64,000 nt of DNA from Desulfobacterales bacterium (GCA_963668645.2 CAXXWC010000018.1:160001-224000), one strand, 5' to 3'. Positions 32,704-56,415 are shown, numbered from the stretch's first letter. The notes: generated from the letters alone by a model not told the origin. Numbers and translations: made by a program.

Positions 32704-32730
32704 TTGACATCAATGGCGCACTTTTATAAT
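32704..32730 (+). promoter_or_regulatory. sigma70 promoter for the riboswitch leader
   Basis: TTGACA (32704) and TATAAT (32725); the 15-nt spacer is short; directly precedes the riboswitch. Confidence 0.6.
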
Positions 32731-32740
32731 ACAGACTTAA

Positions 32741-32903
32741 AAAATTTGTTCAGGCGCTCATAATGGAGCTTAATAGGGAACCCCGTGAAAATCGGGGACG
32801 GGCCCGCCGCTGTAATCGGGGACGAAAGCCGTAGCATGCCACTGACCTTGGGTCGGGAAGGCACGGCCGGTAGGACGATCCGTCAGTCAGAAGACCTGCC
32901 TGG
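32741..32903 (+). ncRNA. Cobalamin (AdoCbl) riboswitch
   Basis: Motifs in canonical order: AATAGGGAA-CCCCGTGAAAATCGGGG, CCCGCCGCTGT, GCCACTG...GGGAAGG, B12 box GTCAGAAGACCTGCC. Confidence 0.95.
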
Positions 32904-32956
32904 GCATATGGTCACCACCGCGCGGACGGCGTGGCGGCCACGATTTATCTGTGGAT

Positions 32957-33005
32957 AAAAAAGGGAAATCCCGGATCGCAAAAGATCCGGGATTTCCTTT
33001 TTTTT
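32957..33005 (+). terminator. Intrinsic terminator (riboswitch expression platform)
   Basis: GGAAATCCCGGATC-GCAAAA-GATCCGGGATTTCC followed by T8. Confidence 0.9.
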
Positions 33006-33190
33006 GTGGGCCCTGCCGGCCCGGATTCCGGGTCAACGAAACGGTCAATACATCGGGCTTTGGGTTTTCAACCATCGGCATCGTTCGAGAACGAAGAAAG
33101 GCGCTGATGCGATACGCTAAAAGCGGGCTCAATACTGTCCTGTTAAAAGGTGTTCAATATGAAATAACTATCTAAAGATACTTAAAGGCG

Positions 33191-33313
33191 ATGGACTTTT
33201 TTGCCCATACGTCAGTTCCGCCGGTGCGCTGCTCGGTATCCTGGAAGCTACCGGGTTTGCTCTTTTACATGCCACGACCAGTACCTGTGTATGGCTTTTG
33301 CCCAGCTGATCTA
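33191..33313 (+). mobile_element. IS4-family (DUF4372-like N-terminus) transposase remnant
   Basis: Removing one T gives MDFLPIRQFRRC..RYPG.Y.V.SFTCHDQYLCMAFAQL*, the recognisable N-terminus of this IS4 group. Confidence 0.7.
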
Positions 33314-33558
33314 GCGGTACTACGATGACCGGCAACAACGGGCACTGGTTTTTTGACCAACAACTTTTACCCACCTGCCTTGACCATAGCGGATTTTGCC
33401 GCTGGCGATGGCAGGTGAAACTCTTTTTCAATTCGAAAAAGTGACTCTTTTTCAGCTACTTGATGTTGCCGGCGACAACAAAGCAGATAGGGTGCCTTGT
33501 CTCCAATTGAAATTATGCGATTCTTGAACGGACACTGCTGAAAAAATGCTTGTAATGA

Positions 33559-34345
33559 TTGCCATTTGCGATAGATGGCTATCCTCTTCTTCTTCTTTGT
33601 CAAATCGTCCATGCCAGTCCGGCCGGGATGACCGCCGAAGCGCTTGGCAAAAAGCTGCGCTGCCGTTGTCATTCGGTTCTGGTCGGGTTGTACCGTCGCG
33701 GTCTTGTCCAACGCCAGCACCAGGGACGCGCGAACGTTTACCTGGCCAGCAATGCCAGGACCGACGAGGCGCAACGTCGTGTCCTGGCAGCGCCCGTGAC
33801 GGCGGTGCTGCCAGCCGAGATCGCGGTGATGGTGCTGGCCGGATTCATCCGCCAACCATCGGCCGGGCCAGCCGAGCTGGCCCGCCGGGTGTCGGCCAGG
33901 GCCACCGTGCGTATCGAGGCCGAACAGATCCGGGCGCTGTTCGCGCATCACGGTTTAAAAAAACTGTTGCCGTTGCGGCCATCGGCCTCCTGAGTCGCCT
34001 CAGCGAACAACTGCAACAGGAGGTGCGCCCGTCGGTACTGTCCCCGCAGCCACCGGCGGTCGATTTCGAGGCCTGCCACAGTGTCGGGCAGATTCGCAAT
34101 GAGCCGCTGGCCCGCGATGTGGTGCTGTCCGATTCTCAAATCACCAAACTCGGCCGCAAGTTTATCCTCTTGCTGGCCCATCGCCGCGCCATCCCGCGCA
34201 TCAATCAGGCGATGGTCAGAAGCGGCAGCTATATCCTCCATCTGGATGCCGTGCACCAAGAAGATGTGCCCGCCCTGATGTCAGACAACGACGGTCTGAG
34301 CGGCCTGGTGTTGTCCAACGTCAAGGTCCCCAGTGAACACGCCGC
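33559..34345 (+). mobile_element. Degenerate two-ORF IS-like transposase remnant with -1 slippery site
   Basis: orfA ...SPAGMTAEALG...HHGLKK; T_TTA_AAA_AAA at 33954-33963 shifts -1 into orfB carrying YILHLDA...GLSGLVLSNVKVPSE (DDE-like); truncated. Confidence 0.55.
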
Positions 34346-34634
34346 GTTGGTAAAAAATTTTTCCAACCCCGACTACATGAAAACCCTGCTCGACGGTCGG
34401 CCCAATATCGAAGCCGTGTTTGCTGATTTGAATTGGGCTGCGGCTTCCGAGGATCTGACAACGGCTACGGAAGCCGAATGTGTTCTGCCTGGTTTTAAAG
34501 CACTGACAAAAATGCCGGATCTACCCGTTCGAATCTCAGAACGCGCTTCTGCGGCTTTATCCAGGGTAAAATCCAACCAAATTGTGTGGTTATGGAAGAT
34601 AACGTTACAGCTTTTTTGTCAAAGGAGGAAAAAC

Positions 34635-37600
34635 ATGCAGGCTGATCCACGCAACAGGTTTTTGAATTTTGCAGGCGCCGTACTGCTGGCCGTGCCTTTG
34701 GTCGCTATCGGCCTGGCCGCCGGACCGTCTATGGCCGACGCGGCCGGAATTACGGTCCAAGAGGGCGGAAGCATTCAGGCGGCCATTGACGCGGCCACGT
34801 CCGGGGACACGGTAACCGTGGAAAGCGGCACCTATGCCGGGGGCCTTACAATAGCTGAAAAATCACTGATCCTGCTCGGGGTGGACACGGGCGCCGGAAA
34901 GCCGGTAATCGACGGCGAGGGCGGCTCGGAACCGGTTGTTTCGCTGCAAAACAGCAGCGGCTGTACCGTCGAAGGGTTTGCGATCCAGAATTCGGGTTCT
35001 TTCGGCCTGAAGATACTGGGTTCGCCCAACGCGATCGTCCGGAGCAATGAACTCACCAATACCAACGGTATCGATGTAGAAGAAGGGTCGGACGCGGTCA
35101 CGATTGCACAAAACACCTGTGAGAGCAATGGTAACGCCCTTTATGTGTATAACTCACCCGGCCCCACCATCACCGGCAATACCTTTCAAAATGTCAGCAG
35201 CATTGGGTTGTACATAAGAAATTCCGGCGATGCCGCCATCAGAGACAATACCTTTGAAAACGTGGGCAACCGCGGAATTTACGCAAGAGATTCGATCAAT
35301 CCTGTCATCACCGGAAATACCTTAAACACCGATAGGGACGCAATTAACGTGAGGGGGTCGGACAATGCGGTCATCACCAAAAATACCTCTAAGAACGCAA
35401 TCAATGTACAGCAGTCCAACAACGCTGTTATTTCCGAAAATAGCTCTGCAGATTCATCGGGCTACGGAATATATGTAAGTAATTTAAGCGATCTGGTCCT
35501 TTCCCAGAATACCGTCAGCAGCGCCGGCAGCGATGGCATCTACCTGAACCAGATCACAACTGGCCTGGTGGAACACAACGCCGTCACCGGGGTAGGTGGT
35601 ACGGCGTGTCTCGTCGTCGAAAGTTGCAGCGATGCGATCGTCCGATACAATACGCTCAATGAGTCGGTCTACTATCTTGGTCTCGCCATTTGGGGGGGCA
35701 GCCAGGGGTGCAGCTTTTATGGCAATACCGTGGCCAACAACAACGGTGACCAGGGATGGAGCGGCGGTCTTTACCTGGAGGATGCCGATGCCGGGAACAC
35801 TTTTTACCTCAACGATTTTGAAAACGATGTCAATGTCGTCGAAACGGCAGGCGGCAGCGACTACCATTCGCCTGTTTTGTTGCGATACCAATACGGAGGC
35901 GAGACCCGTGATGGGTATTTGGGAAACCGCTGGTCCGACTACACCGGCACGGATGCAAACGGCGACGGCGTCGGGGATACCCCTTATGTGATAAGCGGCG
36001 ATATTCAGGACCCTTATCCCCTGGTAGGGACCCTGGACGCGTATACGGACATTATTGAAATAGCGCCCGATATCGCCATCAGCAACCTGACGCCGCCGTA
36101 TGTTGTCGGCGTCAGCCTGAACAACGTGATAACGGTCACCCTGCGCAACAACGGACTGGGCGCTGCCGGGACCTTCAACGTCTACCTTTACGCCGACGGC
36201 GAACTGGTCGACACGGTGACGGTGGAGGGCTTGGCCGCCGGCGAAGAGATTCAGGTGGCATTCACCTGGACGCCGCTGGAACGGATGACGGGCGTGGTTC
36301 TTACCGCTGAAACCGATCCGGACTACGCCGGACAGGGCATTAATCTCGATGACAATCAAACCGTGGCCGAGGCAGCGGTGGACGTTCTTGCCTCCGATTT
36401 GACCGTGACCGCGGTGGCCGTGGCGGCCGAGGTGGACAAAGACGAGGCCCGGACGGTGACTGTAACCGTTGCCAACACCGGATCCGCGCCGGCCATGGAC
36501 TTCACCGTGGGGCTCTACTGCGACATGTCGCCGGTGGTTCCCTGGGCCATGGCGCACCCGGCCGAAGCGGCCCTGCAGCCCGGCCTTTTCAACACCGTGG
36601 GAGCCGCCGGTCTGGTGGCCCGGGCGGTGGTGGACAATCTAGGGGCCGGAGAGTCAACGGATGTGGAGATTTCCTGGACCCCGGCCGACCCCGGGGTGCA
36701 TTTTGTCAGCGCCTGGGTGGATATGACGGCCGGTACCGTTGAGATGGACGATGCCAACAATATGCTGGCAACCCCGGTGCAAACCCTGGTTACGCCCTAC
36801 GCCGGCACGGTGACCACCCTGAATCAGGGGGATTCCCTGCAAACTGCGGTGGACGCCGCAGCCACGGGCGACACCATCCTGCTCAACCCGGGAACCTATC
36901 TGCTGGAGCCGGACGGCCAGGGCCTGCGGCTCAACATTCCGAAGGGGGGCTTGACTTTCAAGAGCGCAGGCGGGGCCGTGATCGACGGCAGCGTCAATGT
37001 GCTGCAGGACCCGGCCATTGCCTGGACGTCGGACGCGCCGGATACGGTCTTTGACGGTATTGCCTTTGTAAATTTCGCCATGGCCGCCGGCACGGCGGAC
37101 AAGTCCGGCCTGATGCTGAAAAACTGTACGTTCCAGGGCGGCCTGCGCGCCTTTTTCGGCGCCGAAGACGCCCTGGCCAATACCGACGGACTGACGGTCA
37201 GCGGCTGCCTGTTCGAGGCTGCCGACGTCAACGCCTTTGACGCAACGGCCGCGGACGTGACCATTGAAAATACGGTGTTCGACGGCAGTGCGTTTGCCGT
37301 GCGCAACCCGTCCGCTTTCAGCGGCTTTATTTTCCGCAACAACATGGTTGCCGGCGCTACGGTGCCCGAGGGCGCCAACAGCGCCTTTGTGCGCATCGAA
37401 GGGCCGGACGGCCTGGTGGCGGGCAACGTGTTCGAAGCCATGTCCCCCGGCGCGGGAAAGCTGGCCCTGACCCTGGTGGGCAGCAATGCGACGGTGCAAG
37501 GCAACCGCTTCGGCGCACTTTCCGGCGACGGCCATATCCTGCTGGAAAACGGTTCGAACAACCGGATTTATCTGAACGATTTTCCGGGCGAGGCGCCTCT

Positions 37601-39740
37601 TCTGTACGGCAATCCCGTGCTGCAGTCGCCGGAAGCCTATACCTATACCTATCAGGAACAAAGCTACACCTCGGTGCTCGGCAACCGCTACGCTTCTTAC
37701 GGGGGCGCTGATGCGGACGGCAACGGCGTGGGCGACACCTCCATGGATTTCACCGGGGCAAGCGACACGTTCCCGCTGATGGATTCCTTTGCCGCCTATA
37801 CGGATCTGGCCGCCGAAAAGGCCAATCTGACTGTGGGCGCGGTTACCGGGCCGGCAACGGCCCATGTGGGCATCTCCGCCGAGGTGACCGCCGAGGTGAG
37901 CAACACGGGCGGACCGGCCCATGATTTCACGGTGGCCCTCTACGCCGATGGAACCTTGGTGGAAACCCTGACCGTCGATACCCTCGGATTCGGGGAGACC
38001 GAAACCCTGACCTTCACCTGGACACCGGCGGCGGAAGCCCAGGCAGTGGTCCTTTCGGTGATCGCGGATGACGGCAATACGGTGGCCGAAAGCAACGAGG
38101 ATGACAATACCGTTGCGGCCGACACCGGTGTGGGCGTCACGCTGGCGGTGGACATGAGCATCGATCCGGCAACCGTTGAGACTGAAAACGGATCGGCCTT
38201 TGACGTGGCCATCCGCCTGGCGCCAAACGCTTACCGGGTGGCCGGGGTACAGTTCGACCTGACCTTCAATCCCGCCATCCTGGAGGTGACCGGCGTAACC
38301 GAAAGCACGCTTCTGAATCAGGACGGCGCCGGCACCTATTTTAACGGCGGTGCGGTGGACAACACGGCCGGCACCCTCACCGGGGTCGTGGGCGCCATCA
38401 CCACCCCGGGGGCGGACGTGGGCACGGCCGGCGTTTTCGCCGTTGTGAGTTTTCTGGCCAAGGGGGACGGCGTTTCGGTCCTGACCCTGTCCAATGCCAT
38501 TGTGGGTGACATGGATGCCCAGCCGCTGACCGTCGCCTTGACCGGAGGCTTTGTGCAAACCGCCTTTACCTATACGGCCACGGGCCAGGCGGCCTACGGC
38601 GGGGGGCAAACCGGCCCGCTGTATGTGGGCGTATACCTGGATGAAGACCTGAACCAGCCGCTGGTGCTGCCGGTTGCCGCCGACCTTGGAACGGACGTGA
38701 CCGTGTCCGACCTGGGGCCGGGGACCGGATACTACTTCGGCGGGTTTATCGACAGCAACGAAAACAACCTGCGGGATCCGGCCGAGGCTTTCGGCGCGGT
38801 GATGTTCGACATCGTGGACGACGACGTGACCGGGCTCGACGCTATTCTGTCGGACCCGGACGCGGACACCGACAACCTGCCCGACTACTGGCAGACCCTG
38901 TATGCCGGTTACAACTGCGGCCAGGGCATCGGGGGGGGCGACGACGACGCGGACCACGACGGCTACAGCAATGCCTGGGAATGGGCCAACGGCACCGATC
39001 CCACGGTGGTGGATGATCCGGACGGTCAGGGGTACGATCCCCAGACCGACCAGCGGGTGGTGCCGGCTGGCTGGTCCGTGACCCGCAGCCACGGCGACTA
39101 CCGGCCCGGTCAGTCCTTTACGGTAACCGTCACGGTTGCATACTCAGGGGACGTAACCGCCCTGGGCATCACCGAGGCCTTGCCCGAAGGCTGGACCTAC
39201 GTATCGGCTGAAAGCGCCGGCGGTATGAACGTGTTTGCGACCGGCGACGGCCGCCTCGAGTTCGCCTGGCTCAGCCTGCCGACCGACGGCCAGGGCCAGT
39301 CGGTCAATCCTTTTACCTTCAGTTACACCCTCCAGGTGCCGGAAACGGCCGGTGGCGACGCGGTTTTCGATGGGCAGGTGATCATGCGCATCGGCGGCGA
39401 GGCCGAAACCGCCTTTGACATGGCCCGGACCGTAGCCCGGCGCTTTGCCTTCCACACAGCGGACTTTTACCCGGCGGACTGGAGCATCAACCTGTCCGAG
39501 CTGCTGCGGGTCATTCAGCTTTACAACGTGGGCGCCTACCACTGTGATGGCCTGGGTGAAGACGGCTTCAACCCGGGTGCGGGTGAATACATGGACCCTG
39601 CGCCCCACAGCGCGGACTACAACCCGACAGACGGCGTTATCAGCGTATCCGAGCTGCTGCGGGTCGTGCAGATCTACAACGTGGGCGGGTACTGCCAGGA
39701 TGCCCTGGGTGAGGACGGGTACCGGCCAAGCGTCCAGTAG
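34635..39740 (+). CDS. Giant secreted scaffold protein 1 (1701 aa): NosD-like beta-helices, CARDB domains, cohesin, Ca-binding repeats, LPxGW module, duplicated dockerin-like C-terminus
   Basis: AAGGAGG RBS before ATG 34635; signal peptide; SIQAAIDAA..GDT; GNRWSDY.G.D.NGDGVGD; AESNEDDN; AGVQFDLTFNP; HSADY...LSELLRVIQ x2. Confidence 0.88.
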   Translation: MQADPRNRFLNFAGAVLLAVPLVAIGLAAGPSMADAAGITVQEGGSIQAAIDAATSGDTVTVESGTYAGGLTIAEKSLILLGVDTGAGKPVIDGEGGSEPVVSLQNSSGCTVEGFAIQNSGSFGLKILGSPNAIVRSNELTNTNGIDVEEGSDAVTIAQNTCESNGNALYVYNSPGPTITGNTFQNVSSIGLYIRNSGDAAIRDNTFENVGNRGIYARDSINPVITGNTLNTDRDAINVRGSDNAVITKNTSKNAINVQQSNNAVISENSSADSSGYGIYVSNLSDLVLSQNTVSSAGSDGIYLNQITTGLVEHNAVTGVGGTACLVVESCSDAIVRYNTLNESVYYLGLAIWGGSQGCSFYGNTVANNNGDQGWSGGLYLEDADAGNTFYLNDFENDVNVVETAGGSDYHSPVLLRYQYGGETRDGYLGNRWSDYTGTDANGDGVGDTPYVISGDIQDPYPLVGTLDAYTDIIEIAPDIAISNLTPPYVVGVSLNNVITVTLRNNGLGAAGTFNVYLYADGELVDTVTVEGLAAGEEIQVAFTWTPLERMTGVVLTAETDPDYAGQGINLDDNQTVAEAAVDVLASDLTVTAVAVAAEVDKDEARTVTVTVANTGSAPAMDFTVGLYCDMSPVVPWAMAHPAEAALQPGLFNTVGAAGLVARAVVDNLGAGESTDVEISWTPADPGVHFVSAWVDMTAGTVEMDDANNMLATPVQTLVTPYAGTVTTLNQGDSLQTAVDAAATGDTILLNPGTYLLEPDGQGLRLNIPKGGLTFKSAGGAVIDGSVNVLQDPAIAWTSDAPDTVFDGIAFVNFAMAAGTADKSGLMLKNCTFQGGLRAFFGAEDALANTDGLTVSGCLFEAADVNAFDATAADVTIENTVFDGSAFAVRNPSAFSGFIFRNNMVAGATVPEGANSAFVRIEGPDGLVAGNVFEAMSPGAGKLALTLVGSNATVQGNRFGALSGDGHILLENGSNNRIYLNDFPGEAPLLYGNPVLQSPEAYTYTYQEQSYTSVLGNRYASYGGADADGNGVGDTSMDFTGASDTFPLMDSFAAYTDLAAEKANLTVGAVTGPATAHVGISAEVTAEVSNTGGPAHDFTVALYADGTLVETLTVDTLGFGETETLTFTWTPAAEAQAVVLSVIADDGNTVAESNEDDNTVAADTGVGVTLAVDMSIDPATVETENGSAFDVAIRLAPNAYRVAGVQFDLTFNPAILEVTGVTESTLLNQDGAGTYFNGGAVDNTAGTLTGVVGAITTPGADVGTAGVFAVVSFLAKGDGVSVLTLSNAIVGDMDAQPLTVALTGGFVQTAFTYTATGQAAYGGGQTGPLYVGVYLDEDLNQPLVLPVAADLGTDVTVSDLGPGTGYYFGGFIDSNENNLRDPAEAFGAVMFDIVDDDVTGLDAILSDPDADTDNLPDYWQTLYAGYNCGQGIGGGDDDADHDGYSNAWEWANGTDPTVVDDPDGQGYDPQTDQRVVPAGWSVTRSHGDYRPGQSFTVTVTVAYSGDVTALGITEALPEGWTYVSAESAGGMNVFATGDGRLEFAWLSLPTDGQGQSVNPFTFSYTLQVPETAGGDAVFDGQVIMRIGGEAETAFDMARTVARRFAFHTADFYPADWSINLSELLRVIQLYNVGAYHCDGLGEDGFNPGAGEYMDPAPHSADYNPTDGVISVSELLRVVQIYNVGGYCQDALGEDGYRPSVQ

Positions 39741-39753
39741 GAATGAAAAAAGA

Positions 39754-39788
39754 GCCGCGGGGGTGGGCTTTCGATCTGCTCCCGCGGC
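39754..39788 (+). other. GC-rich stem-loop without U-tract after scaffold gene 1
   Basis: GCCGCGGG...CTCCCGCGGC; paralogous hairpin at 45124-45158. Confidence 0.6.
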
Positions 39789-39876: not shown

Positions 39877-40290
39877 ATGAAACGAAAAGTGGCGATAAGA
39901 ACGCTGTCGGTTCTGGCCCTGGCGGCCGTGGTGCTGTGGTCCGCAACGGCCTTTGCGTTGACCGCCTCCCAGCAGGTTATCGGTGCGGGCGGCGAGATAA
40001 CGGTCATTACCACCATTGAATACAACGAGGCGCTCACGGCCCTGGGCGTAAGGGTGAAGCTGCCGGCTGGCTGGACCTTCAAGACCGTGGGCGGCAGCGA
40101 TGTGCCTGCAGTGGCGCCGGCTGAGGGTGCAAGCGGTGAAATCGACTTTGCCTGGATCGCGGCACCGGCTGGACCGGCGATGTTTGCATATACCCTGGCG
40201 GCGCCGCAAGGGGGTACGGCTCAGGATCTGGCTGCCGAGGTGGTCTACCGCGTGGGCGCCGGTGAGGAGCAGGTGGTTGTTGTCGAGTGA
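39877..40290 (+). CDS. Small secreted single LPxGW (cohesin-like) module protein, copy 1
   Basis: AAGGAG RBS; signal peptide AFA|; TALGVRVKLPAGWTF...IDFAWI...FAYTL. Confidence 0.85.
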   Translation: MKRKVAIRTLSVLALAAVVLWSATAFALTASQQVIGAGGEITVITTIEYNEALTALGVRVKLPAGWTFKTVGGSDVPAVAPAEGASGEIDFAWIAAPAGPAMFAYTLAAPQGGTAQDLAAEVVYRVGAGEEQVVVVE

Positions 40291-40299: not shown

Positions 40300-40366
40300 T
40301 TCTGCTTCGCTCCACCGATACGATATCAAAAGAACGTTTCAGTCTTATTGCCATAGGAGGAAAACC

Positions 40367-47882: not shown

Positions 47883-50066
47883 TTGAAGTCCCTTAAAAAC
47901 AACACAAATGGGGGGGAAAGCCCGGGACACACCGCGGCAACCCTTGTTTTGCTGCTTTTAGCGATTTTTGCTGCACCGGCGGCGGCAGCCGTGGACCTGA
48001 CGGCTCACCATGCAGCCGCTCCTTACATACCGGGAAGTCCGTTGGTCGTAACCGTGACGCTGGACTACGATACGGGCCTGAGTGCCCTGGGCATGCGCGT
48101 GGTGCTGCCCACGGACTGGACTTACCTTTACTGCTGCGGGACCGGCCGGCCCGACAGCGTCCGGGTCGTCGCCCCCGGCGAGCTGGAATTGGTGTGGATC
48201 AACGCACCGGAACCCGGCGCCGGGGAGGATCCTGCACTGTCTTTTACCTATCTGCTGGGCGTTCCGGCATCCGAAGCCGAAACCCGAACGCTCCAGGCTG
48301 AAATTTTTTACCGCGTCGGCAGTGGGGCCGAGAATACAGCGGCCGTTTTGCCGGACCCCTTGGACGTGTCCGCTGATCCCGCACCGGAAAGTTTCGTGGA
48401 GCCGACGCACCAGGCAGCGCGTTTTTTGGCCGGCAGCCTTGCAGCGGTGGAGACGTCCGTACGGTATTCGGGCGAGTTGAGTGCATTGGCCCTGGTTATG
48501 GAACTGCCTGAAGGCTGGTCGTATGCCTCCGCCGACGGAGAGGTGCCGGACATTGAACCAACACCCGGTACAGAAGGAACATTAGAATTTACATGGATTA
48601 CGCCGCCGCCAAGTCCGGCCGTCTTTACCTGCCGGCTGCAGACACCGGTGGATGCCGGCAATGCCGCCGAGATCCGCTCCGAAATTGTATATCGGCGCCT
48701 GGCCGAAGAGCTTCGCAAGGAGGTGCAGCCGGACCCGCTCATGCTCCGTTGGGTGACTCCGGAAGTTTTGCAGGCAGCGCCGTCCGCCATCGTGGACAGT
48801 CCGGAAGCAAAGGAACTGGTGGTTACCGGCCGCTATTTTGTTCCGGGTGAAAACCACATCGTGCGTTTCGTCAATTCGCAAAACGTTTTCGATCTGAAAA
48901 GCCTGCCGTCGGATGAAAGCAGTCTGACGGTCGCTATCCCGCCCGGTGTTCCGCCGGGGACCTACCGGCTGCGGGTCATCAATGCATGCGGCATTTCGGC
49001 TCTCAGCGAAGCCACCGTGGAGGTGACCGCGCCGGCGACGCCGATACCCAACGTAACCGACGTCCGGCCCTCTACCGGCGCCGTTCAAAAATCGACCCGG
49101 ATCACCCTATACGGGGCGCATTTCAACGACGTATCGTCCGTTTGCCTCTGCGAAGACGGCCTTCAGATAGCGCTATTGGACGTTACTTTGGTGGATGAAT
49201 CCACTGTTCAGGCGACAGTGCCGTCGACTTGTCCCGAGGGCATCTATGATGTGCAGGTGACGGCCGGCGGGCTAAAAAACAACATCAGCACGGTAAAGTT
49301 TTTCGTATTTGTACCGAGGGCCATTAACTCCGAGACTTCCGATGAATTGGTGGCCGATGGGTTGGTGGACCTTGACGAAAATTTAAACGGTACCCTGCCG
49401 GTCAACCTGACCCTGAAAACCTGGTCCGACGGATACCGGATGGTGATCGACGACGATCCCCTGGAAATCGAGGCGGTCATCGAGGCCGGTACCCGCATGA
49501 CCCGCAGTGACGGGAGCGCCTATGCGGGCGCCCTGATGATGCCGGTGCAGGTCAAGGTAACCGAGGATCTCGCAGAGGATTTCAGTTGGGATGACGTGGC
49601 GCTATTCCAGATGGGCAGCGCCGAAGAATCCATCATTTTGTCCGAACCCATGGTAATCGCCTTGACCGTCAGCCGCAGCGCCGCGAAGGGCGCCCCCCTG
49701 ATCTACTACCTTGATGCAGACGGCGGGACCACACCGGCCGGCGTGGCCGGTGTAAAGGACGGCCGGGAATATGAAGCCGGCGGAACCGTACTGGAAGTTA
49801 GGGCGGATGAACCCGAGGCCGGCAAGAACACATACCGTATCGGCCTGCTGCTAGACCATATGTCCACCTTCGTCGTGGGAAACAAGGGCGCCGCTTCGGG
49901 GCAGCCCCCGTCTGGCGGCGGCGGAAAGTGCTTTATCGATGTGGCCGACGGGGAAATAGGTAATTTTAACGGCGGCTGTCAAGTGATTTGGGGCGTGATG
50001 GTCCTTCTGGCGATGGGACTGTGCCTGGTGAAACGGATGGAGGATCAAAAGCCGCAGGATAGGTGA
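47883..50066 (+). CDS. Putative membrane-anchored scaffoldin: two LPxGW modules, IPT/TIG-like domains, C-terminal GGGG-CFI + TM + basic tail
   Basis: GGAGG RBS with TTG start; LPTDW and LPEGW modules; PPGTYRLRV / PEGIYDVQV; SGGGGKCFI...VIWGVMVLLAMGLCLVKR. Confidence 0.82.
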   Translation: MKSLKNNTNGGESPGHTAATLVLLLLAIFAAPAAAAVDLTAHHAAAPYIPGSPLVVTVTLDYDTGLSALGMRVVLPTDWTYLYCCGTGRPDSVRVVAPGELELVWINAPEPGAGEDPALSFTYLLGVPASEAETRTLQAEIFYRVGSGAENTAAVLPDPLDVSADPAPESFVEPTHQAARFLAGSLAAVETSVRYSGELSALALVMELPEGWSYASADGEVPDIEPTPGTEGTLEFTWITPPPSPAVFTCRLQTPVDAGNAAEIRSEIVYRRLAEELRKEVQPDPLMLRWVTPEVLQAAPSAIVDSPEAKELVVTGRYFVPGENHIVRFVNSQNVFDLKSLPSDESSLTVAIPPGVPPGTYRLRVINACGISALSEATVEVTAPATPIPNVTDVRPSTGAVQKSTRITLYGAHFNDVSSVCLCEDGLQIALLDVTLVDESTVQATVPSTCPEGIYDVQVTAGGLKNNISTVKFFVFVPRAINSETSDELVADGLVDLDENLNGTLPVNLTLKTWSDGYRMVIDDDPLEIEAVIEAGTRMTRSDGSAYAGALMMPVQVKVTEDLAEDFSWDDVALFQMGSAEESIILSEPMVIALTVSRSAAKGAPLIYYLDADGGTTPAGVAGVKDGREYEAGGTVLEVRADEPEAGKNTYRIGLLLDHMSTFVVGNKGAASGQPPSGGGGKCFIDVADGEIGNFNGGCQVIWGVMVLLAMGLCLVKRMEDQKPQDR

Positions 50067-50108
50067 ATTCCAGCGAAAACCATCGTTTCGTCCGTCGAAA
50101 GGGAAAAT

Positions 50109-51182: not shown

Positions 51183-51375
51183 GGAGTTTCCATCCAGAAA
51201 TGGCCCTTTTCCGCAATCTCGGTCTCAGACCGCGGAGTTTCTTGTGCGGCGTACTACCCGTACGCCTCCGCGCAACTCCTTGTCTTCCTTGATCTTGCGA
51301 AAAATTGCTCATTTCTGAATCGGAAACTCACCGGTGCCCGGTTCCCATTTCTGGATGGGCACTAGGGAGGACAAC

Positions 51376-52809
51376 GTGAAGCGATGCTTTTCAAAATCAA
51401 AAACAACGGCCTGGAGCGTAGCAATCCTTTTCGGGCTGTTGGCTGCCGGGGGGGCCGTTGCCGCTGACTGGCCCCAGTTTCAAAACGGTGCCACAAGACC
51501 CGGCATCACCTACGATGCCGCCCCTGTTACGGCGCCGGCAGTACGCTGGAAAACCTTTACCCATTACCACTATACCCACGGCATCGACGTGCCGGCGGTC
51601 ATCGCCAACGGCCGGGCCTTTGTCATTGATGTGGACGAATACGCCTGGGCCTTCAATGCGGACAACGGGGCCATGATGTGGTCCGTGCCGCTGACCGAAG
51701 GGAACCGCTTCACCCTGGCCACGCCGGCTTACGGCGACGGCAAGATTTTTTTCGCCACCTCCACCGGCTGGATCTACGCCCTGGCGGAAGAGGATGGCAC
51801 GGTGCTGTGGAGCGGCAAGCTGACTCAAGGGGCGTATCAGGAAGAGGAGCTTTCCACGCAGATCGCTTATGACGACGGGCGGGTTTACGTCGGCAGTTGG
51901 GAAGGCGTTTACTACGCCCTGGACGCCATGGGAGACGGCGGCGGCCAGCCGAAGATTTTGTTTTCTTACGAAATCTCGGAGGGCGGCTACGATTGGTGGT
52001 CCGGCCCTACCGTGGTCGGTCCATATCTGCTGTTCGGCGACACCCGGTCGCATATGGTCTGCCTGGACAAGGTGACCGGTGAGAAGACGGCGGAATTCGA
52101 CGCCGGGCAGTATTTCGGAGTGGATGCAGGCTCCATCCGCTCGGCAGCGACCTACGACGCGGGCAACGGCCGCATCTATTTCACCTCCAAAAACGGCTAT
52201 CTTTTTGCCGTCGGCTTCGATCGGGGCGTTGGGCAGTTCGACGGGGCCAGCGGCTGGGTCGTCCCGGCGGGAAGTTACAGCGCTTCGACGCCAACTTTCC
52301 ACGACGGGCGGATCTATGTCTGCACCGGGAGTTTTCAAAAAACCGGCGGTTTGAGCTGCCACGGGGCGGCCGATGGCGGGGTGATCTGGCAGCACGCCTT
52401 CGACGGTTACGGCTCCGAAGGCGCACCGGCCATATCCGTGCAAAACGGGGAGGCCTACATCTTCATTTCCACGGATACGGGCGCGGGAACTTTTTACTGC
52501 TTCGACAAAGACGGCAACATCCGATGGTCCCACGTGCCGGACCATCCTGAATACATACTCCAGGGGGCCGCCATCTGGGACGGCAAGGTCTACTTCACCA
52601 ACGATGCGGGCTATATCTACTGTATGGGGGATCCCCTGGAAGCCGACGTGAATCGGGACGGGGCGGTGAACGTGCTCGACATGATCCGCCTCGGACAGCA
52701 TTGGAACCAAACCGGTGTGCCGGGATGGATCACCGAGGACGTCAACGCCGACGGCGTCGTTAATATCCTCGATATGATTGTGGTGGGGCAGAACTGGTCA
52801 GGGAGCTGA
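51376..52809 (+). CDS. Secreted PQQ-like beta-propeller with C-terminal dockerin, no. 2
   Basis: GGAGG RBS with GTG start; ADWPQFQ; DVNRDGAVNVLDM...EDVNADGVVNILDM. Confidence 0.88.
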   Translation: MKRCFSKSKTTAWSVAILFGLLAAGGAVAADWPQFQNGATRPGITYDAAPVTAPAVRWKTFTHYHYTHGIDVPAVIANGRAFVIDVDEYAWAFNADNGAMMWSVPLTEGNRFTLATPAYGDGKIFFATSTGWIYALAEEDGTVLWSGKLTQGAYQEEELSTQIAYDDGRVYVGSWEGVYYALDAMGDGGGQPKILFSYEISEGGYDWWSGPTVVGPYLLFGDTRSHMVCLDKVTGEKTAEFDAGQYFGVDAGSIRSAATYDAGNGRIYFTSKNGYLFAVGFDRGVGQFDGASGWVVPAGSYSASTPTFHDGRIYVCTGSFQKTGGLSCHGAADGGVIWQHAFDGYGSEGAPAISVQNGEAYIFISTDTGAGTFYCFDKDGNIRWSHVPDHPEYILQGAAIWDGKVYFTNDAGYIYCMGDPLEADVNRDGAVNVLDMIRLGQHWNQTGVPGWITEDVNADGVVNILDMIVVGQNWSGS

Positions 52810-52864
52810 AACAATCTCAAAACCGAAAGCCCAGTGAAGAATCGATGATTTTAATGTTGCGACG

Positions 52865-54268
52865 ATGAAAAAAATAAAAACGATTTGGATCTGTCGGGCC
52901 GTTGTGCTGCTGGCCGGGCTATTGGCCGCCGGCGCCGCCGGCGCGGAAGACTGGCCCCAGTTCCAGTGCACGGCGGCGCGAAAGGGATGGACGACGGATT
53001 CGGCGCCCGTATTACGCCCGGTCCTCAAATGGCGGCGCTATGTAGACGGGTGCGGCGTCGGCATTGAATCGCCGCCGGTGGTCTGGAACGATCGGGTGTA
53101 TGTGATCGCCTGCAGCACCATCCTGGCTCTTAACGCGGCCACCGGACAGGAGGTGTGGCGGGCCGACATCTCCGGTCACGGCAGCCTGCAGTCGGGCACG
53201 CCGGCAGTGGGCGGCGGCATGCTGTTTGTCGTGACCTTCGACGGGTATGTCATGGCCTTGGATGCTGCCGGTGGAGATTTGCGCTGGTCCCGCAAGGTGG
53301 CCGCGCTGAATTTTCAATGTCCTTTGACCTATCACCAGGGGCGTCTGTATGTCGGGGAGGGCGGCACCGGCGGGACTCTCAACCGCTACTTCTGCCTGGA
53401 TGCAGCCGACGGCGACACGCTATGGGAATATGCGGCTCAAACCGCCGGGTACCTCTGGTGCGGCGCCTCCGTTGCCGGTGATTTTCTGGTGTTCGGCAAT
53501 GTCAACGGGGTGCTTACCGCCTTGCACCTGGCCGACGGCACGGCGGCCGACGTCCTCGACTTCCACGACCTTGGCATCGAGCCCGGGCGGATCCGGGCTT
53601 CGGTAAGCTTCTTCGACGGTTTTGTATACACAACCTCCGAAGCCGGCGCCGCGGCCGGCTATGTCTACAAGGTCCCCTTCGACACCGTAAGCGGGACGTT
53701 CGGCGATCCGACCTGGATGACGCCTTTCGGCTTCAGCACGTCCACGCCGGTCAAATACGGGGACCGGATCTACGTAGGGCAGGGCGAACACGGCTTCCCG
53801 GGACGACTGGTCTGCCTGAATGATGCCGACGGGTCGATTCTCTGGGACTATGCCGTTTACAGGGGGGTGAAGTCGTCGCCCGCCCTTTCGGCGACGCCGG
53901 CAGGGCTTCACATCTACTTTGTGCCGGCACAAGACGACGGAGCGATGACCTGCTTAACGGAAAACGGGAATTTGGCCTGGTCCTGGAACCCACCGGAAGA
54001 CGACGGCTATATTCTGCAAGGGGCGGCCCTGTCCGAAGGCCGGCTTTTTTTCGGCACAGGCAGCGGGAATCTCTTCTGCCTGGTCGAAGCTGCAACGGCC
54101 GACATCAACGGCGATGGCGGCGTGGACGTGCTCGACATGATTCGCCTTGGACAGCAATGGAACCAAACCGGTGCACCGGGGTGGATTGCTGAAGACATCA
54201 ACACGGACGGCATCGTGAATATCCTGGATATGATCATCGTGGGGCAGAACTGGTCGGGGCGCTTATGA
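52865..54268 (+). CDS. Secreted PQQ-like beta-propeller with C-terminal dockerin, no. 3
   Basis: EDWPQFQ; STSTPV, SSPAL; DINGDGGVDVLDM...EDINTDGIVNILDM. Confidence 0.88.
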   Translation: MKKIKTIWICRAVVLLAGLLAAGAAGAEDWPQFQCTAARKGWTTDSAPVLRPVLKWRRYVDGCGVGIESPPVVWNDRVYVIACSTILALNAATGQEVWRADISGHGSLQSGTPAVGGGMLFVVTFDGYVMALDAAGGDLRWSRKVAALNFQCPLTYHQGRLYVGEGGTGGTLNRYFCLDAADGDTLWEYAAQTAGYLWCGASVAGDFLVFGNVNGVLTALHLADGTAADVLDFHDLGIEPGRIRASVSFFDGFVYTTSEAGAAAGYVYKVPFDTVSGTFGDPTWMTPFGFSTSTPVKYGDRIYVGQGEHGFPGRLVCLNDADGSILWDYAVYRGVKSSPALSATPAGLHIYFVPAQDDGAMTCLTENGNLAWSWNPPEDDGYILQGAALSEGRLFFGTGSGNLFCLVEAATADINGDGGVDVLDMIRLGQQWNQTGAPGWIAEDINTDGIVNILDMIIVGQNWSGRL

Positions 54269-54305
54269 CCAAAGGACGGAGTCCGGAGTACGGAGGGCAG
54301 AGGAT

Positions 54306-54348
54306 AAGATGGCGGCGCCGGCCGGCGCAGAGCGCATCTTTTTTTTTT
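54306..54348 (+). terminator. Putative terminator/attenuator between propeller 3 and the TonB-dependent receptor
   Basis: AAGATG...GCGCCG-GC-CGGCGC...CATCTT followed by a T-run. Confidence 0.5.
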
Positions 54349-54357
54349 CATACATTC

Positions 54358-56415
54358 ATGACCCAATATCCCTGTAAAACGCAGAATTCAATTGCGGCGA
54401 TGTTGCGGCTCGTGCTGCTGGCAGCCCTGCTGCTGGCGATCGGTGTCCCCATCAGCCATGCTGAGAACGGGCAGGAAAGGGGCGGCTCATATTCGGATGC
54501 CGCGGATAGCTCCACGAAAGAATCCACCGATGACCCGATAGTCCTCGACGAAGTCGTCGTCAAGGGCGTCAAGATCAAAGAGTCCACCGGGGTAAGCGTC
54601 ATCAGCCGCGAGGACATCGAAAACAAGCAGAAAAACACCGTTATCGAGCTATTGCGGGACATTCCCGGCATCGACGTGGTGCAGACCGGCGGGCCCGGTA
54701 AATCCGCCCACGTCTATATCCGCGGCGCCAATCCCGAGCACACCCTGGTGTTGATCGACGGCGTGGAAGTCAGCGACCCCATGTCGCCGGCAAGATCGTT
54801 CGACTTCGGCTATCTGGGTACCGACGGCATTGACACCATCGAGATCCTGCGAGGAGCGCAGTCTCCGCTTTATGGGGCAAACGCCATGGGCGGCGTTATC
54901 AACATCACCACCCGAAAAAACAAGGGGCCTATCTCCGGGTTCGTTTCCAGCGAGGGCGGCTCGCTCGATAGCCGCAAGATCGCCGGCGCCGTCGGTGGAC
55001 GCATAGGATGGTTCAACGTCTCCGTAAACGGTTCCCACGCGGGTAGCGACGGTGTGTCGGCCGCCAACCGGGAAAGGCAGCAAAAAGGCGGAGGGCACGG
55101 CTTCATGGGCGAGGGCAGTACGGAAACCGAAATCCCCGAGCCGGACGGCTTCACCGACAACTCCTATTCGGCGAGGGTGGAATTCATGCCGATGGAGATG
55201 TGGAAGATCGAAGGCTTTTATCTGTGCAACGACTACGCCGGCGATCTGGACGACCATGCCGGCGCCGGTGGTGAAGATCCCAATTACGACATGGATATGA
55301 ATCACCGGCTATACAAGCTGGCCGGATCGCTACGCCTGTTCGGCGACCGCTGGGAGCAGACGCTGTCCCACGGGGTCTCCGAGACGGTGCGCACTTACGA
55401 AAACAAGGCCGATCCCCTGCATCACCTGAGCGAGGACTACGGCAGCGTCTATGATGGAAGCATCAGCCAGGACAAGTGGCACCATCACTTTGAGATTTTC
55501 CGGTGGGCCGAAGTTGATGTCGGTATCGAGGAGAAAAAAGAGCTTGGCGACTACAGCTACTACTCGGACAGCCACTGGGGACGATATAACTATCAATTCC
55601 CGCTTCGCACGGCGAGCACCACCAGCTACTACGGCAGTGCAAGGATCGAGTTCGGCGAGCGGTTTTCCGTCACCGGCGGCCTTCGCCGGGACGATCACAG
55701 CATGTTCGATTCCGAAACCACCGGACGTATTGAGACGCTCTGGATATGTCCCGGCGTCGAGACTTTTTTAAAGGCTTCCTACGGGACAGCATGGAAGATC
55801 CCATCGCTTTTTCAGCTCTATTCCCTGTGGGGCAACGAAGACTTGAAGCCCGAAGAGAGCACTAGTTGGGATATCGGCGTCGAGCAGGCCCTGTTCGAAG
55901 GCCGGCTCCGGGCGGGCGTGACCTGGTTCCGGAACGACTTTGTCGATCTGATTGACTACAACTATTGGAAGGGATACGTCAATGTGGAAGGCGCCCGGAC
56001 GGAAGGTGCCGAGATTTTCCTGCGGCTGGAATTATTGGATGATTTGACGCTCAGCGTAAATTACACTCACACCGAGACCGAGGACAAAACCACGGGGGAA
56101 AAGCTGCTGCGGCGTCCCCGGACCAAATACAGCGCCAATCTCAACTACGCTTTCACTCCCGGCCGTTTTTTTCACCAGGCGAACTTTAACCTAAATTACC
56201 GGTATGTGGGGGAACGGGAGGACTGGGTCCCATGGCCCCGGCGGGGCGTGGTGGAATCCTACTCGGTCGTGGACGTGGCACTGCATGTGGACATCAACGA
56301 CCGACTGCGGCTGTTCGGCCGCATCGAAAACCTGTTGGATGATGAATACCAGGAGGTCTGGGGTTTCGGTGTGCAAAGGCGGTTTTTCGCTGCTGGCCTG
56401 CGGGTCAGCTTCTAA
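54358..56415 (+). CDS. btuB: TonB-dependent outer-membrane receptor, BtuB-like
   Basis: TonB box LDEVVV; YIRGANPEHTLVLIDGV; IEILRGAQSPLYGANAMGGVINI; ENLLDDEY; terminal F; downstream of a B12 riboswitch. Start 54358 or 54400. Confidence 0.85.
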   Translation: MTQYPCKTQNSIAAMLRLVLLAALLLAIGVPISHAENGQERGGSYSDAADSSTKESTDDPIVLDEVVVKGVKIKESTGVSVISREDIENKQKNTVIELLRDIPGIDVVQTGGPGKSAHVYIRGANPEHTLVLIDGVEVSDPMSPARSFDFGYLGTDGIDTIEILRGAQSPLYGANAMGGVINITTRKNKGPISGFVSSEGGSLDSRKIAGAVGGRIGWFNVSVNGSHAGSDGVSAANRERQQKGGGHGFMGEGSTETEIPEPDGFTDNSYSARVEFMPMEMWKIEGFYLCNDYAGDLDDHAGAGGEDPNYDMDMNHRLYKLAGSLRLFGDRWEQTLSHGVSETVRTYENKADPLHHLSEDYGSVYDGSISQDKWHHHFEIFRWAEVDVGIEEKKELGDYSYYSDSHWGRYNYQFPLRTASTTSYYGSARIEFGERFSVTGGLRRDDHSMFDSETTGRIETLWICPGVETFLKASYGTAWKIPSLFQLYSLWGNEDLKPEESTSWDIGVEQALFEGRLRAGVTWFRNDFVDLIDYNYWKGYVNVEGARTEGAEIFLRLELLDDLTLSVNYTHTETEDKTTGEKLLRRPRTKYSANLNYAFTPGRFFHQANFNLNYRYVGEREDWVPWPRRGVVESYSVVDVALHVDINDRLRLFGRIENLLDDEYQEVWGFGVQRRFFAAGLRVSF

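What the first reader, a model, noticed from the sequence alone, without database searches (positions are those of the whole stretch)
32704..56415. Cobalamin-riboswitch-led cellulosome-like system ending in BtuB: candidate extracellular corrinoid-capture complex
Seen: a canonical B12 riboswitch and terminator head 11 co-oriented genes, all with signal peptides. They are two 1.6-1.7k-aa cohesin-bearing scaffolds, two small module proteins, three dockerin-tagged beta-propellers, two adaptors, a C-terminally anchored scaffoldin-like protein and a BtuB-like receptor. I recognised no glycoside-hydrolase catalytic domain. Known: cohesin-dockerin pairs assemble cellulosomes; B12 riboswitches control corrinoid uptake genes; Bacteroides BtuG is a surface beta-propeller (a different family) that hands B12 to BtuB. 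Inference: a surface-tethered multivalent lattice displays propellers that harvest corrinoids for BtuB. I know of no described system with this architecture.
Basis: partly seen in the sequence, partly recalled or inferred. Interest (0 to 1): 0.92.

Follow-up and report, generated by a model that had tools for sequence, protein, structure and literature searches.

The report
B12-switched snap-together surface capture array
A sulfate-reducing bacterium has acquired a 24-kb gene block, headed by a vitamin-B12-sensing RNA switch, that uses cellulosome-style snap-together modules to display three untested propeller proteins beside a B12-type importer, most likely to scavenge B12-family cofactors.

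Summary
Observation largely confirmed: a cobalamin riboswitch (125 bits), a terminator and 11 intact co-oriented secreted-protein genes ending in a BtuB-like receptor.

Corrections: a decayed IS fills most of the 1.6 kb before the first gene, and each large protein has only one Pfam cohesin, so this is not a cellulosome.

New: the block is an island inside a type II secretion locus (empty site in one same-genus genome). The three 8-bladed propellers are three old subfamilies that co-occur in methanogens, ANME and an SLH-bearing bacterium. A transcobalamin-like DUF4430 or CobN-type gene lies within 10 kb in 12 of 18 archaeal genomes. A second genome of the order has the same propellers, cohesins and receptor plus DUF4430; a B12 riboswitch ends the contig that probably precedes its cohesin operon.

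Best reading (0.55): a surface-tethered corrinoid-scavenging array, working like Bacteroides BtuG/BtuJ but unrelated to them. Binding, assembly and regulation are untested, and this genome lacks DUF4430.

The scan saw related systems before on other DNA (e1-4696676, e1-4527372, e1-1210178). Verdict: new variant of a known kind.

The parts
32634..32664 (+). Left copy of a ~31-bp imperfect direct repeat (itself a hairpin) at the island edge
   Evidence: Pattern and its 16-nt core occur only twice in the 6.35-Mb genome, here and at 56669-56698; both fold as hairpins
32704..32730 (+). Promoter-like site: consensus -35 and -10 hexamers with a short 15-bp spacer
   Evidence: Read from the sequence; not reported by the scanner, which needs a 16-18 bp spacer
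32735..32917 (+). Cobalamin riboswitch aptamer (RF00174)
   Evidence: 125.4 bits, E 4.4e-31, full model; top-scoring of 15 above cut-off in the genome
32964..33005 (+). Intrinsic terminator of the expression platform (14-bp stem, 8 T)
   Evidence: a competing aptamer/5'-arm pairing of -17.7 kcal/mol is possible but not proven
33543..34589 (+). Decayed, internally deleted insertion sequence between switch and first gene
   Evidence: 87-91% identical pieces to an element found at 11 other places in the genome; that element's ORF has only weak transposase hits (IS256 E 4.5e-4)
34635..39740 (+). Large surface protein A, 1701 aa: beta-helix, CARDB x2, beta-helix, CARDB, one cohesin, TSP3-like repeat, cohesin-like module, C-terminal dockerin-like tag
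39877..40290 (+). Small secreted protein 1, 137 aa: a lone cohesin-like module
   Evidence: relatives carry the module in arrays of up to 9; the paralogous module folds like a cohesin or pilin domain
40367..45109 (+). Large surface protein B, 1580 aa, paralog of A (54% over ~1460 aa)
   Evidence: cohesin 54% identical to an SLH-anchored cohesin in L043; C-terminal 222 aa modelled at pLDDT 94
45222..45635 (+). Small secreted protein 2, 137 aa, near-copy of protein 1
45746..47140 (+). Propeller 1: 8-bladed PQQ_2-type propeller plus dockerin (ORF open from 45731)
47128..47766 (+). Adaptor 1, 212 aa: cohesin-like module plus host-type dockerin-like tail
   Evidence: Dockerin_1 only E 0.15
47883..50066 (+). 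Anchor, 727 aa: two cohesin-like modules, TIG domain(s), Gly-rich linker, hydrophobic segment and basic tail
   Evidence: one of 3 genome proteins with this tail; a rhombosortase above cut-off is in the genome
50109..51182 (+). Adaptor 2, 357 aa: cohesin plus two TSP3-like/host-type dockerin-like units
51376..52809 (+). Propeller 2 plus dockerin (ORF open from 51334)
   Evidence: 58% identical to a G435 protein
52865..54268 (+). Propeller 3 plus dockerin; carries a His conserved in its clade
   Evidence: His in 15 of 15 clade members
54305..54350 (+). Hairpin plus ten T before the likely receptor start; possible attenuator
   Evidence: not listed by the terminator scanner
54400..56415 (+). BtuB-like TonB-dependent receptor (ORF open from 54265)
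   Evidence: 46% identical to the receptor beside the G435 propellers, at most about 33% in local stretches to 6 other receptors of this genome
56433..56672 (+). ISL3 transposase fragment at the right edge
   Evidence: PF01610 E 3e-16; NF033550 E 1e-13
56669..56698 (+). Right copy of the direct repeat
22085..32551 (-). Context, not part of the island: host type II secretion genes gspF, G, H, I, J, K, L, M, D, E
56776..59207 (+). Context, not part of the island: host lone-cohesin gene, gspN, gspC
   Evidence: adjacent to gspF (278 bp between hits) in same-genus G532

Best explanation
A horizontally acquired, B12-repressed corrinoid-scavenging array. When cellular cobalamin is low the terminator does not form and the block is transcribed (switch shown; read-through across the IS remnant inferred). 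The proteins are exported by Sec and probably by the surrounding T2SS (inferred). They assemble through three orthogonal tag/module pairs. (1) The propellers' dockerins bind the single cohesins of proteins A, B and adaptor 2. (2) The C-terminal tags of A and B bind the cohesin-like modules of the membrane anchor, adaptor 1 or each other. (3) The adaptors' host-type dockerins plug into the host's own cohesins. All three pairings are inferred from domain content, not shown. The long beta-helix/CARDB arms hold three distinct propellers away from the cell. These bind cobamides or cobinamide, free or released from dead cells or partners, and raise the local concentration at the co-encoded BtuB-like receptor. 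Periplasmic BtuF-type proteins and CbiZ encoded elsewhere finish import and remodelling (genes shown, role inferred).
For: Regulation and receptor: RF00174 plus terminator. The receptor's best PDB match is BtuB and its ortholog co-travels with propellers 2 and 3 in G435. In G435 a B12 riboswitch runs off the end of contig C168, and C169 begins with what looks like a terminator 3' arm and T-run, followed by propeller-dockerin, DUF4430-dockerin, cohesin, propeller-1 and more cohesin genes.

Genomic company: of 201 genomes of the phylum of Methanolobus profundi, 18 have the propeller-1 family; DUF4430 lies within 10 kb in 11 of 18, CobN-type in 4 of 18, either in 12 of 18. Propeller-DUF4430 fusions occur (P0042, P0047, P0060; L043, L045). 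The L048 and L062 loci hold a propeller-CobN fusion next to the family, L048 also BtuF, FecCD and CbiK. Markers were found in 14 of 36 close loci and 0 of 43 distant-propeller loci (biased test). DUF4430 is the C-terminal domain type of transcobalamin (PMC4350170, passage), and its prokaryotic forms, one fused to a propeller, were predicted to scavenge B12 (PMC1796856, passages).

Protein features and demand: the three subfamilies are kept apart across domains, all are acidic, and there is a clade-invariant His. The host has 15 B12 switches and 25 B12-binding-domain hits above cut-off. Precedent: the seven-bladed BtuG (PMC6143338, passages).
Against: No binding data exist for any component. 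G000 has no DUF4430, by Pfam or by my own profile, so the domain with real B12-binding credentials is absent here and the propellers could be accessory. The closest solved folds are generic 8-bladed propellers: YxaL, Rv3035, tetrathionate hydrolase, BamB. The IS remnant may uncouple the switch, and the internal hairpin-T10 may split off the receptor. No RF00174 was found in 40 homologous loci (40 of 79 given, mostly archaeal-looking or truncated, but including the 20-kb SLH-bearing L043). The G435 link crosses a contig break. In 6 of 18 archaeal genomes neither marker is near. The genome has CbiD, CbiK and CobN-type genes, so it is probably not an auxotroph. CobN-like proteins also de-chelate heme (PMC12583661, passages), and PMC1796856 itself suggests the archaeal DUF4430-type proteins may scavenge another metabolite.
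Confidence: 0.55

Rival explanations
1. Cobalt or metallotetrapyrrole harvesting rather than intact-corrinoid capture: the switch reports cobalt/corrinoid shortage, and the Cys/His-bearing propellers bind Co(II), cobalt-sulfide clusters or other tetrapyrroles (heme, F430), or process them enzymatically, together with extracellular CobN-type (de)chelatases.
For: CobN-type neighbours and fusions. CbiK and a ZnuA-type protein lie near homologs. Conserved Cys in 30 of 46 propeller-1 sequences and His in 15 of 15 propeller-3 sequences. Tetrathionate hydrolase is a near structural neighbour, Z 36.4. The function of archaeal CobN/HmuS homologs is stated to be unclear (PMC12583661, passages). That B12 switches also control cobalt uptake fits CbiK behind a switch in this genome.
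Against: The co-travelling receptor is BtuB-like, not heme- or siderophore-like. DUF4430 is the commoner neighbour (11 against 4 of 18). No CobN gene is in this island.
Confidence: 0.18
2. A B12-regulated adhesin: under corrinoid shortage the cell builds a cohesin-dockerin surface lattice whose propellers and beta-helices bind partner cells, biofilm matrix or corrinoid-proteins. Only the receptor handles the vitamin.
For: Cohesin/dockerin and CARDB proteins of ANME and partner sulfate reducers are read as adhesins and are highly expressed (PMC10553843, passages). PMC1796856 proposed that propellers fused to the B12-binding domain are tethers. Nine of the 11 proteins look structural, and BamB- and Rv3035-like propellers are protein-binding platforms. 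DUF4430 is missing here.
Against: Three separately conserved subfamilies with invariant polar and aromatic loop residues, repeatedly fused in tandem, fit small-ligand binding better than generic adhesion. The family also occurs in Methanosarcina, Methanolobus and Methanothrix, which are not obligate consortium members (general knowledge).
Confidence: 0.17
3. An uncoupled or incomplete island: the IS separated the switch from the genes and the DUF4430 binder was lost, so the block is now unregulated, silent or does something unrelated to B12.
For: IS remnant ends about 45 bp before the first start codon, and an ISL3 fragment lies at the other end. The propeller-1 family was found in 0 of 4 same-genus genomes and 2 of 401 genomes of the order. 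No DUF4430.
Against: All 11 ORFs are intact while the IS is decayed. No strong hairpin-T terminator and no consensus promoter were found in the gap. The switch is the best-scoring in the genome. Near-identical pieces of the first gene are in a run from a second study.
Confidence: 0.1

Closest known systems
Bacteroides BtuG/BtuH/BtuJ/BtuK-BtuB extracellular cobamide relay (PMC6143338 passages; PMC13616437 abstract, section 6 part 2 and section 26)
   Same: B12-riboswitch locus; surface beta-propeller genes next to a BtuB; several paralogs; acidic propellers; proposed capture outside the outer membrane
   Different: BtuG is a seven-bladed lipoprotein confined to Bacteroidetes and caps BtuB directly. 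These are eight-bladed PQQ_2-type proteins with signal-peptidase-I-like leaders and dockerins, tethered by cohesins, and their binding is untested.
Prokaryotic transcobalamin-like SLBB (DUF4430) surface proteins, with alpha/alpha toroid or propeller fusions (Burroughs et al. 2007, PMC1796856, passages)
   Same: Predicted extracellular B12 scavenging complexes; DUF4430 and toroid proteins are the commonest neighbours and fusion partners of this propeller family
   Different: This island and genome have no DUF4430. Import is by a TonB receptor rather than CbiO/CbiQ-type transporters. The passages searched do not mention cohesin or dockerin.
Non-cellulosomal cohesin-dockerin systems of ANME and syntrophic sulfate reducers (Chadwick 2022, PMC9012536 section 32; Murali 2023, PMC10553843 passages)
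   Same: Cohesin, dockerin and CARDB surface proteins without glycoside hydrolases; dockerins on substrate-binding proteins (NikA/OppA, TroA); horizontal transfer among anaerobes
   Different: Those papers read them as adhesins or of unknown function. The passages seen do not link them to a riboswitch, BtuB or a propeller trio ('propeller' has 0 hits in PMC9012536).
Cellulosome (Clostridium, Acetivibrio, Ruminococcus)
   Same: Cohesin and dockerin modules, adaptor and anchor tiers; SLH-cohesin anchor in the L043 homolog
   Different: No multi-cohesin scaffoldin, no glycoside hydrolase and no cellulose-binding module; diderm host with T2SS
BamB / YxaL / PQQ-dehydrogenase 8-bladed propellers
   Same: Fold: YxaL Z 39.5, rmsd 2.4, 334 aligned; BamB Z 33-34; PedH Z 33.4
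   Different: 17-23% identity; far below BamB and PQQ-dehydrogenase cut-offs; ~370-aa domain without the dehydrogenases' extra ~200 residues; not a lipoprotein

Membership tests
Cobalamin riboswitch (RF00174) | Covariance-model score above gathering threshold over the whole model | tested here: met
   125.4 against 31.5 bits, positions 1-189 of 189
Cobalamin riboswitch (RF00174) | B12-dependent repression of the downstream genes | not testable with these tools
   Terminator present; 1.63-kb gap with IS remnant; needs expression data
Cellulosome | Scaffoldin with multiple tandem cohesins | tested here: not met
   One PF00963 per large protein, none in the anchor; at most two cohesin or cohesin-like modules per protein
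Cellulosome | Dockerin-bearing glycoside hydrolases and a cellulose-binding module | tested here: not met
   No such Pfam family at E<=0.01 in the 11 proteins; the first beta-helix has no solved enzyme relative by sequence
Non-cellulosomal cohesin-dockerin system | Cohesin and dockerin domains above curated cut-offs in co-encoded secreted proteins | tested here: met
   PF00963 in 3 proteins and PF00404 in 3 proteins, all above cut-off
Non-cellulosomal cohesin-dockerin system | Specific cohesin-dockerin binding | not tested
   The Pfam cohesin/dockerin pair was not modelled; needs pull-down or ITC
Cohesin (for the unnamed ~110-aa module) | Cohesin beta-sandwich fold | tested here: inconclusive
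   Top hits are C. perfringens cohesins (Z 13.8, rmsd 2.4, 121 aligned), tied with pilin SpaD (Z 13.3); no PF00963 hit
Dockerin (for the C-terminal tag of proteins A and B) | Duplicated Ca-loop-helix and a Dockerin_1 match | tested here: inconclusive
   Duplicated D-rich loop plus helix in alignment and model; no PF00404 hit; atlas gives unnamed Hydrogenedentota clusters at 0.97 and a weak Dockerin_1 lead at 0.84
BtuB | Plug plus TonB barrel with BtuB as nearest characterised relative | tested here: met
BtuB | Score above the curated equivalog cut-off (TIGR01779) | tested here: not met
   256.7 of 599.7 bits
BtuB | Corrinoid transport | not testable with these tools
   needs uptake assay
BtuG | Seven-bladed propeller | tested here: not met
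   Model of propeller 1 (pLDDT 90) has eight four-stranded blades; BtuG2 has seven (PMC6143338)
BtuG | Surface lipoprotein | tested here: not met
   By inspection no lipobox Cys; AxA-type sites and C-terminal dockerins instead (heuristic only)
BtuG | High-affinity corrinoid binding | not testable with these tools
   needs binding assay
Transcobalamin-like SLBB (DUF4430) surface proteins | A DUF4430 domain | tested here: not met
   0 matches in G000 by PF14478 and by a six-sequence profile on window proteins and genome ORFs; present in the G435 cluster
PQQ-dependent dehydrogenase / BamB | Family score above cut-off | tested here: not met
   At most 74 bits against cut-offs of 285-480

The most novel reading that the evidence does not exclude
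The three propeller subfamilies are a new class of corrinoid-binding proteins, unrelated to BtuG and transcobalamin, shared by methanogens, ANME, Gram-positive anaerobes and sulfate reducers. They form a portable capture module whose anchor is swapped to fit each envelope (membrane tail in archaea, SLH in monoderms, rhombosortase/T2SS tail here). In this genome they are assembled into a multi-tier 'cobamide-some' that uses a still unnamed cohesin-like/dockerin-like pair able to chain the 1.6-kDa-residue arms head to tail. This would assign a nutrient-capture function to part of the cohesin-dockerin 'adhesins' of syntrophic consortia.
Probability: 0.3. Interest if true: 0.88.

Novelty: new variant of a known kind. 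Interest (0 to 1): 0.72.

Why it matters
How anaerobic consortia share and compete for cobamides is an open question: some sulfate-reducing partners of ANME lack corrin synthesis, and their highly expressed cohesin-dockerin proteins have no assigned function (PMC10553843, passages). Archaea carry no B12 riboswitch to label such genes (none found in the archaeal-looking loci scanned here). This bacterial copy supplies that label for a propeller trio that is widespread in methanogens and ANME. It gives a cheap, direct test: three soluble ~40-kDa domains and a coloured ligand. A positive result would add a new B12-binding protein family, a first nutrient-scavenging use of a cellulosome-type assembly in a diderm, and probably a new orthogonal cohesin-dockerin pair useful for protein assembly.

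Tried and rejected
Complex prediction of the 137-aa module with the C-terminal tag of protein B gave no verdict (score 0.30, mark 0.32, controls not run). It is not used as evidence either way.

Sequencing runs: no RNA holder listed. Contigs of four runs (at most two samples, two studies) were laid on 31500-51400. X1/X2 pieces match with no differences but may be the source sample, and no piece spans the whole stretch.

BtuG and other B12-binding structures were not among the listed fold-search rows, which does not exclude them. The C-terminal tag was barely tested by the fold search because the cohesin-like domain filled the list.

The single genome-contig scan was made with one protein and returned 1 locus. 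Viral contigs: 0 of 29 candidates. Plasmids: only distant propellers, at most 30% identity in the 15 of 49 records listed. The family of G435 holds only G435. The 9 other phylum hits at E 1e-42 to 1e-50 were dropped as generic propellers (BLAST <=104 bits).

Rv3035-FecB was considered as a nutrient-binding precedent and rejected: the abstracts describe an envelope-biogenesis complex. The weak Binary_toxB Ca-binding hit in adaptor 2 (19.4 bits, cut-off 25) is read as an Asp-rich TSP3-like repeat, not a toxin. The 2064-aa ORF from 33546 is rejected as a chance in-frame extension through the IS; the RBS and signal peptide are at 34635.

An L043 DUF4430 protein found no solved relative by sequence, and adaptor 2 matched a solved cohesin only at E 0.11. 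The name 'CFI-box-CTERM' for the anchor tail is recalled; it was not confirmed by NCBIfam or papers (0 hits). Two same-genus genomes (G573, G405) have other genes upstream of gspN and short contigs, so only 1 of 3 shows the empty site.

Paper searches without a description of this system: (0 papers). Subscription journals are mostly not covered, Peer et al. 2009 (PMC3035643) was not held, and the supplementary cohesin/dockerin tables of PMC9012536 (S4 Data) and PMC10553843 (S10 Table) were not opened and may list homologs.

Full report
OBSERVATION. Three points need correcting. The switch is 1.63 kb from the first gene, and most of the gap is a decayed copy of an IS found at 11 other places in the genome. 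Each large protein has one Pfam cohesin and the anchored protein has none. A hairpin with ten T precedes the likely receptor start. I found no strong terminator and no consensus promoter inside the gap, so read-through is plausible but unproven.

HOST AND ORIGIN. The host is a sulfate reducer (dsrA above cut-off). It has 15 B12 switches above cut-off. These head TonB receptors, BtuF-type and CbiZ proteins, CobN-type and CbiK chelatases, a diol dehydratase locus and a RACo protein. It also has 25 B12-binding-domain hits above cut-off and CbiD. Demand is high but the cell is probably not an auxotroph. The block interrupts a complete T2SS locus, with gspF-E on the left and cohesin-gspN-gspC on the right. 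In same-genus G532 those two halves are 278 bp apart; two other same-genus genomes were uninformative. A ~31-bp repeat found only twice in the genome marks both edges, and an ISL3 fragment lies at the right edge. The propeller-1 family was found in 2 of 401 genomes of the order, 0 of 4 of the genus, and 1 of 401 in a class sample. This is an acquired island.

THE PROPELLERS. Propeller 1 models confidently (pLDDT 90) as an eight-bladed propeller. Its nearest solved folds are YxaL (Z 39.5), Rv3035, tetrathionate hydrolase and BamB, at 17-23% identity; it is neither BamB nor a PQQ dehydrogenase by family score. Named homologs are in Peptococcaceae, Dehalococcoidales, Nitrospiraceae, Methanophagales, Methanothrix, Methanococcoides and Methanosarcina. 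The three window paralogs are 25-38% identical to each other and fall in three clades, each containing other genomes' proteins; the propeller 1 and 3 clades include archaeal-looking loci (midpoint-rooted FastTree of hits at >=150 bits and >=280 aa; no direction of transfer is claimed). Types 1 and 3, often with 2, recur side by side or fused. Propeller 3 has a His in 15 of 15 clade members against 1 of 13 other type-2/3-like sequences, and propeller 1 has a Cys in the same loop in 30 of 46. These are candidate cobalt ligands (inference).

GENOMIC COMPANY. Of 201 genomes in the phylum of Methanolobus profundi, 18 carry the family. DUF4430 lies within 10 kb in 11 of the 18, a CobN-type gene in 4, either in 12, neither in 6. 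With only a few such loci per 1.4-3.3 Mb this is far above chance, though related genomes are not independent. Among fetched loci, corrinoid or tetrapyrrole markers were present in 14 of 36 close and 0 of 43 distant-propeller loci (9 of 14 against 0 of 19 for loci of 7 kb or more). That test is biased because the seeds came from the close loci and self-hits count. Fusions of family propellers with DUF4430 are seen, and propeller-CobN fusions sit next to them. L043, an SLH-bearing locus, has all three types with the same dockerin, DUF4430, and an SLH-anchored cohesin 54% identical to that of protein B. G435, from another family of the same order, has propeller 3, propeller 2 and an orthologous receptor (46%) on contig C168. 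That contig ends inside a B12 riboswitch, and C169 starts with a probable terminator half followed by propeller, DUF4430-dockerin, propeller 1 and five cohesin-like genes. The join is inferred. Against: no riboswitch in 40 loci scanned, and G000 itself has no DUF4430.

ASSEMBLY LOGIC. Profiles built from the island's own modules find the propeller-type dockerin (3), its cohesin type (3), the A/B C-terminal tag (2) and the unnamed module (7 copies in 6 proteins) only inside the island. The adaptors' dockerin-like tails, by contrast, match about a dozen proteins genome-wide (small profiles, limited sensitivity). The unnamed module folds like a cohesin, tied with pilin domains (Z 13.8 against 13.3), and occurs in arrays of up to nine in other proteins. 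The A/B tag is a duplicated loop-helix found at the end of very diverse secreted proteins of Hydrogenedentes, Deferrisomatales and Desulfobacterales, the usage pattern of a dockerin. The anchor ends in a Gly-rich linker, hydrophobic segment and basic tail shared by 3 genome proteins, and a rhombosortase is present. The simplest wiring is three tiers: propeller to cohesin on A, B or adaptor 2; A/B tag to unnamed module on anchor, adaptor 1 or another arm; adaptor to host cohesin. Every pairing is inferred.

MECHANISM AND RIVALS. Best explanation (0.55): a B12-repressed, surface-tethered array whose propellers capture corrinoids for the BtuB-like receptor (best solved relative E. coli BtuB; below the equivalog cut-off). 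Rivals: cobalt or other-tetrapyrrole harvesting or processing (0.18); a B12-regulated adhesin (0.17); an uncoupled or incomplete island (0.10). Shown: switch, genes, domains, folds, island status and gene neighbourhoods. Inferred: co-transcription, export route, pairings, ligand and hand-over.

COMPARISON WITH THE KNOWN. It works like the Bacteroides relay (PMC6143338, passages; PMC13616437, abstract and two sections) but fails BtuG membership on blade number and lipoprotein type. It is not a cellulosome. It is a non-cellulosomal cohesin-dockerin system of the sort noted in ANME and partner sulfate reducers, where dockerins were seen on ABC substrate-binding proteins (PMC9012536, section 32) or read as adhesins (PMC10553843, passages). 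Extracellular B12-scavenging complexes with a propeller fusion were predicted in 2007 (PMC1796856, passages; lead taken from earlier notes). PMC4350170, PMC12583661, PMC10846266 and PMC12246660 were seen as passages only. None of the searches returned a paper describing a B12-riboswitch-led cohesin-dockerin propeller cluster; coverage limits apply. The scan itself had noted what appears to be the G435 cluster without its switch (e1-4696676), an ANME-1 relative (e1-4527372) and clostridial propeller-DUF4430 proteins (e1-1210178).

VERDICT. Real, acquired and unusual. It is a new variant of known kinds, and its value is that it ties an uncharacterised cross-domain propeller trio and the unexplained cohesin-dockerin systems of anaerobic consortia to corrinoid supply in a directly testable way. 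Interest 0.72.

Noticed in passing
L011:11759-16577 (G000:C21:141758-146842, minus): A second, very similar B12 riboswitch (125.3 bits) heads an AraC-like/cyclic-nucleotide-binding-like regulator ORF (read by eye) and two secreted proteins of 659 and 604 aa ending in host-type dockerin-like tails, with no other Pfam domain. A second B12-controlled dockerin locus.
   Followed up: partly
window 22085-32551 and 56776-59207: The host T2SS locus is rearranged: gspN-gspC with a lone cohesin gene diverge from gspF-M, D, E. In five more distant genomes of the order gspK-L-N-C-D are colinear.
   Followed up: partly
L024:3985-11540 (G000:C18:225984-233539): Just beyond the window: a cohesin protein with a duplicated C-terminal tag of yet another type, a 170-aa single-module protein and a 1617-aa Ig-rich protein with the same Gly-rich anchor tail; probably the host's own scaffold system.
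   Followed up: partly
window 59362-63972 (minus): 1536-aa ORF (longer open frame) with Fn3/Ig domains and a host-type dockerin-like tail, conserved next to gspC in three same-genus genomes.
   Followed up: no
G000:C3:~235000-238400: An open frame of 15,496 codons containing cohesin matches; a giant surface protein.
   Followed up: no
L014 (G000:C18:255402-255882): Tandem B12 riboswitches before a TonB receptor, a BtuF-CbiZ fusion and a second periplasmic binding protein; a similar BtuF-CbiZ fusion precedes a signal-peptide-bearing CobN-type gene in L018.
   Followed up: partly
L016:1164-9506 (G000:C13): A B12 riboswitch heads a TonB receptor, ABC transporter and NifH-like plus nitrogenase-component-1-like genes; a nitrogenase-like reductase under B12 control.
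   Followed up: no
P0121-P0240; window 44819-45106: The ~95-aa C-terminal tag of proteins A and B has no Pfam or NCBIfam model yet ends hundreds of diverse secreted proteins, mostly Hydrogenedentes; with the unnamed cohesin-like module it may be an undescribed cohesin-dockerin class.
   Followed up: partly
L048:11264-18395; L062:2438-7984; L059: Archaeal-looking loci join propeller-CobN fusions to DUF2162, MotA/ExbB and DUF2149 genes; G000 has a CobN-type gene behind a B12 switch followed by similar-looking small genes (L018, not scanned).
   Followed up: partly
window 11924-14441 and 9560-10588: An acetate-CoA ligase/acetyltransferase gene appears split over two overlapping frames, and a P-type ATPase ORF is only a 342-aa fragment; possible frameshifts.
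   Followed up: no
window 1-6000: Low-GC (0.39-0.40) stretch with pilin-like genes and a TPR protein, against about 0.6 elsewhere.
   Followed up: no
G000:C22:125819 and C17:3538: Two near-identical-scoring dsrA loci on different contigs; duplication or assembly redundancy.
   Followed up: no
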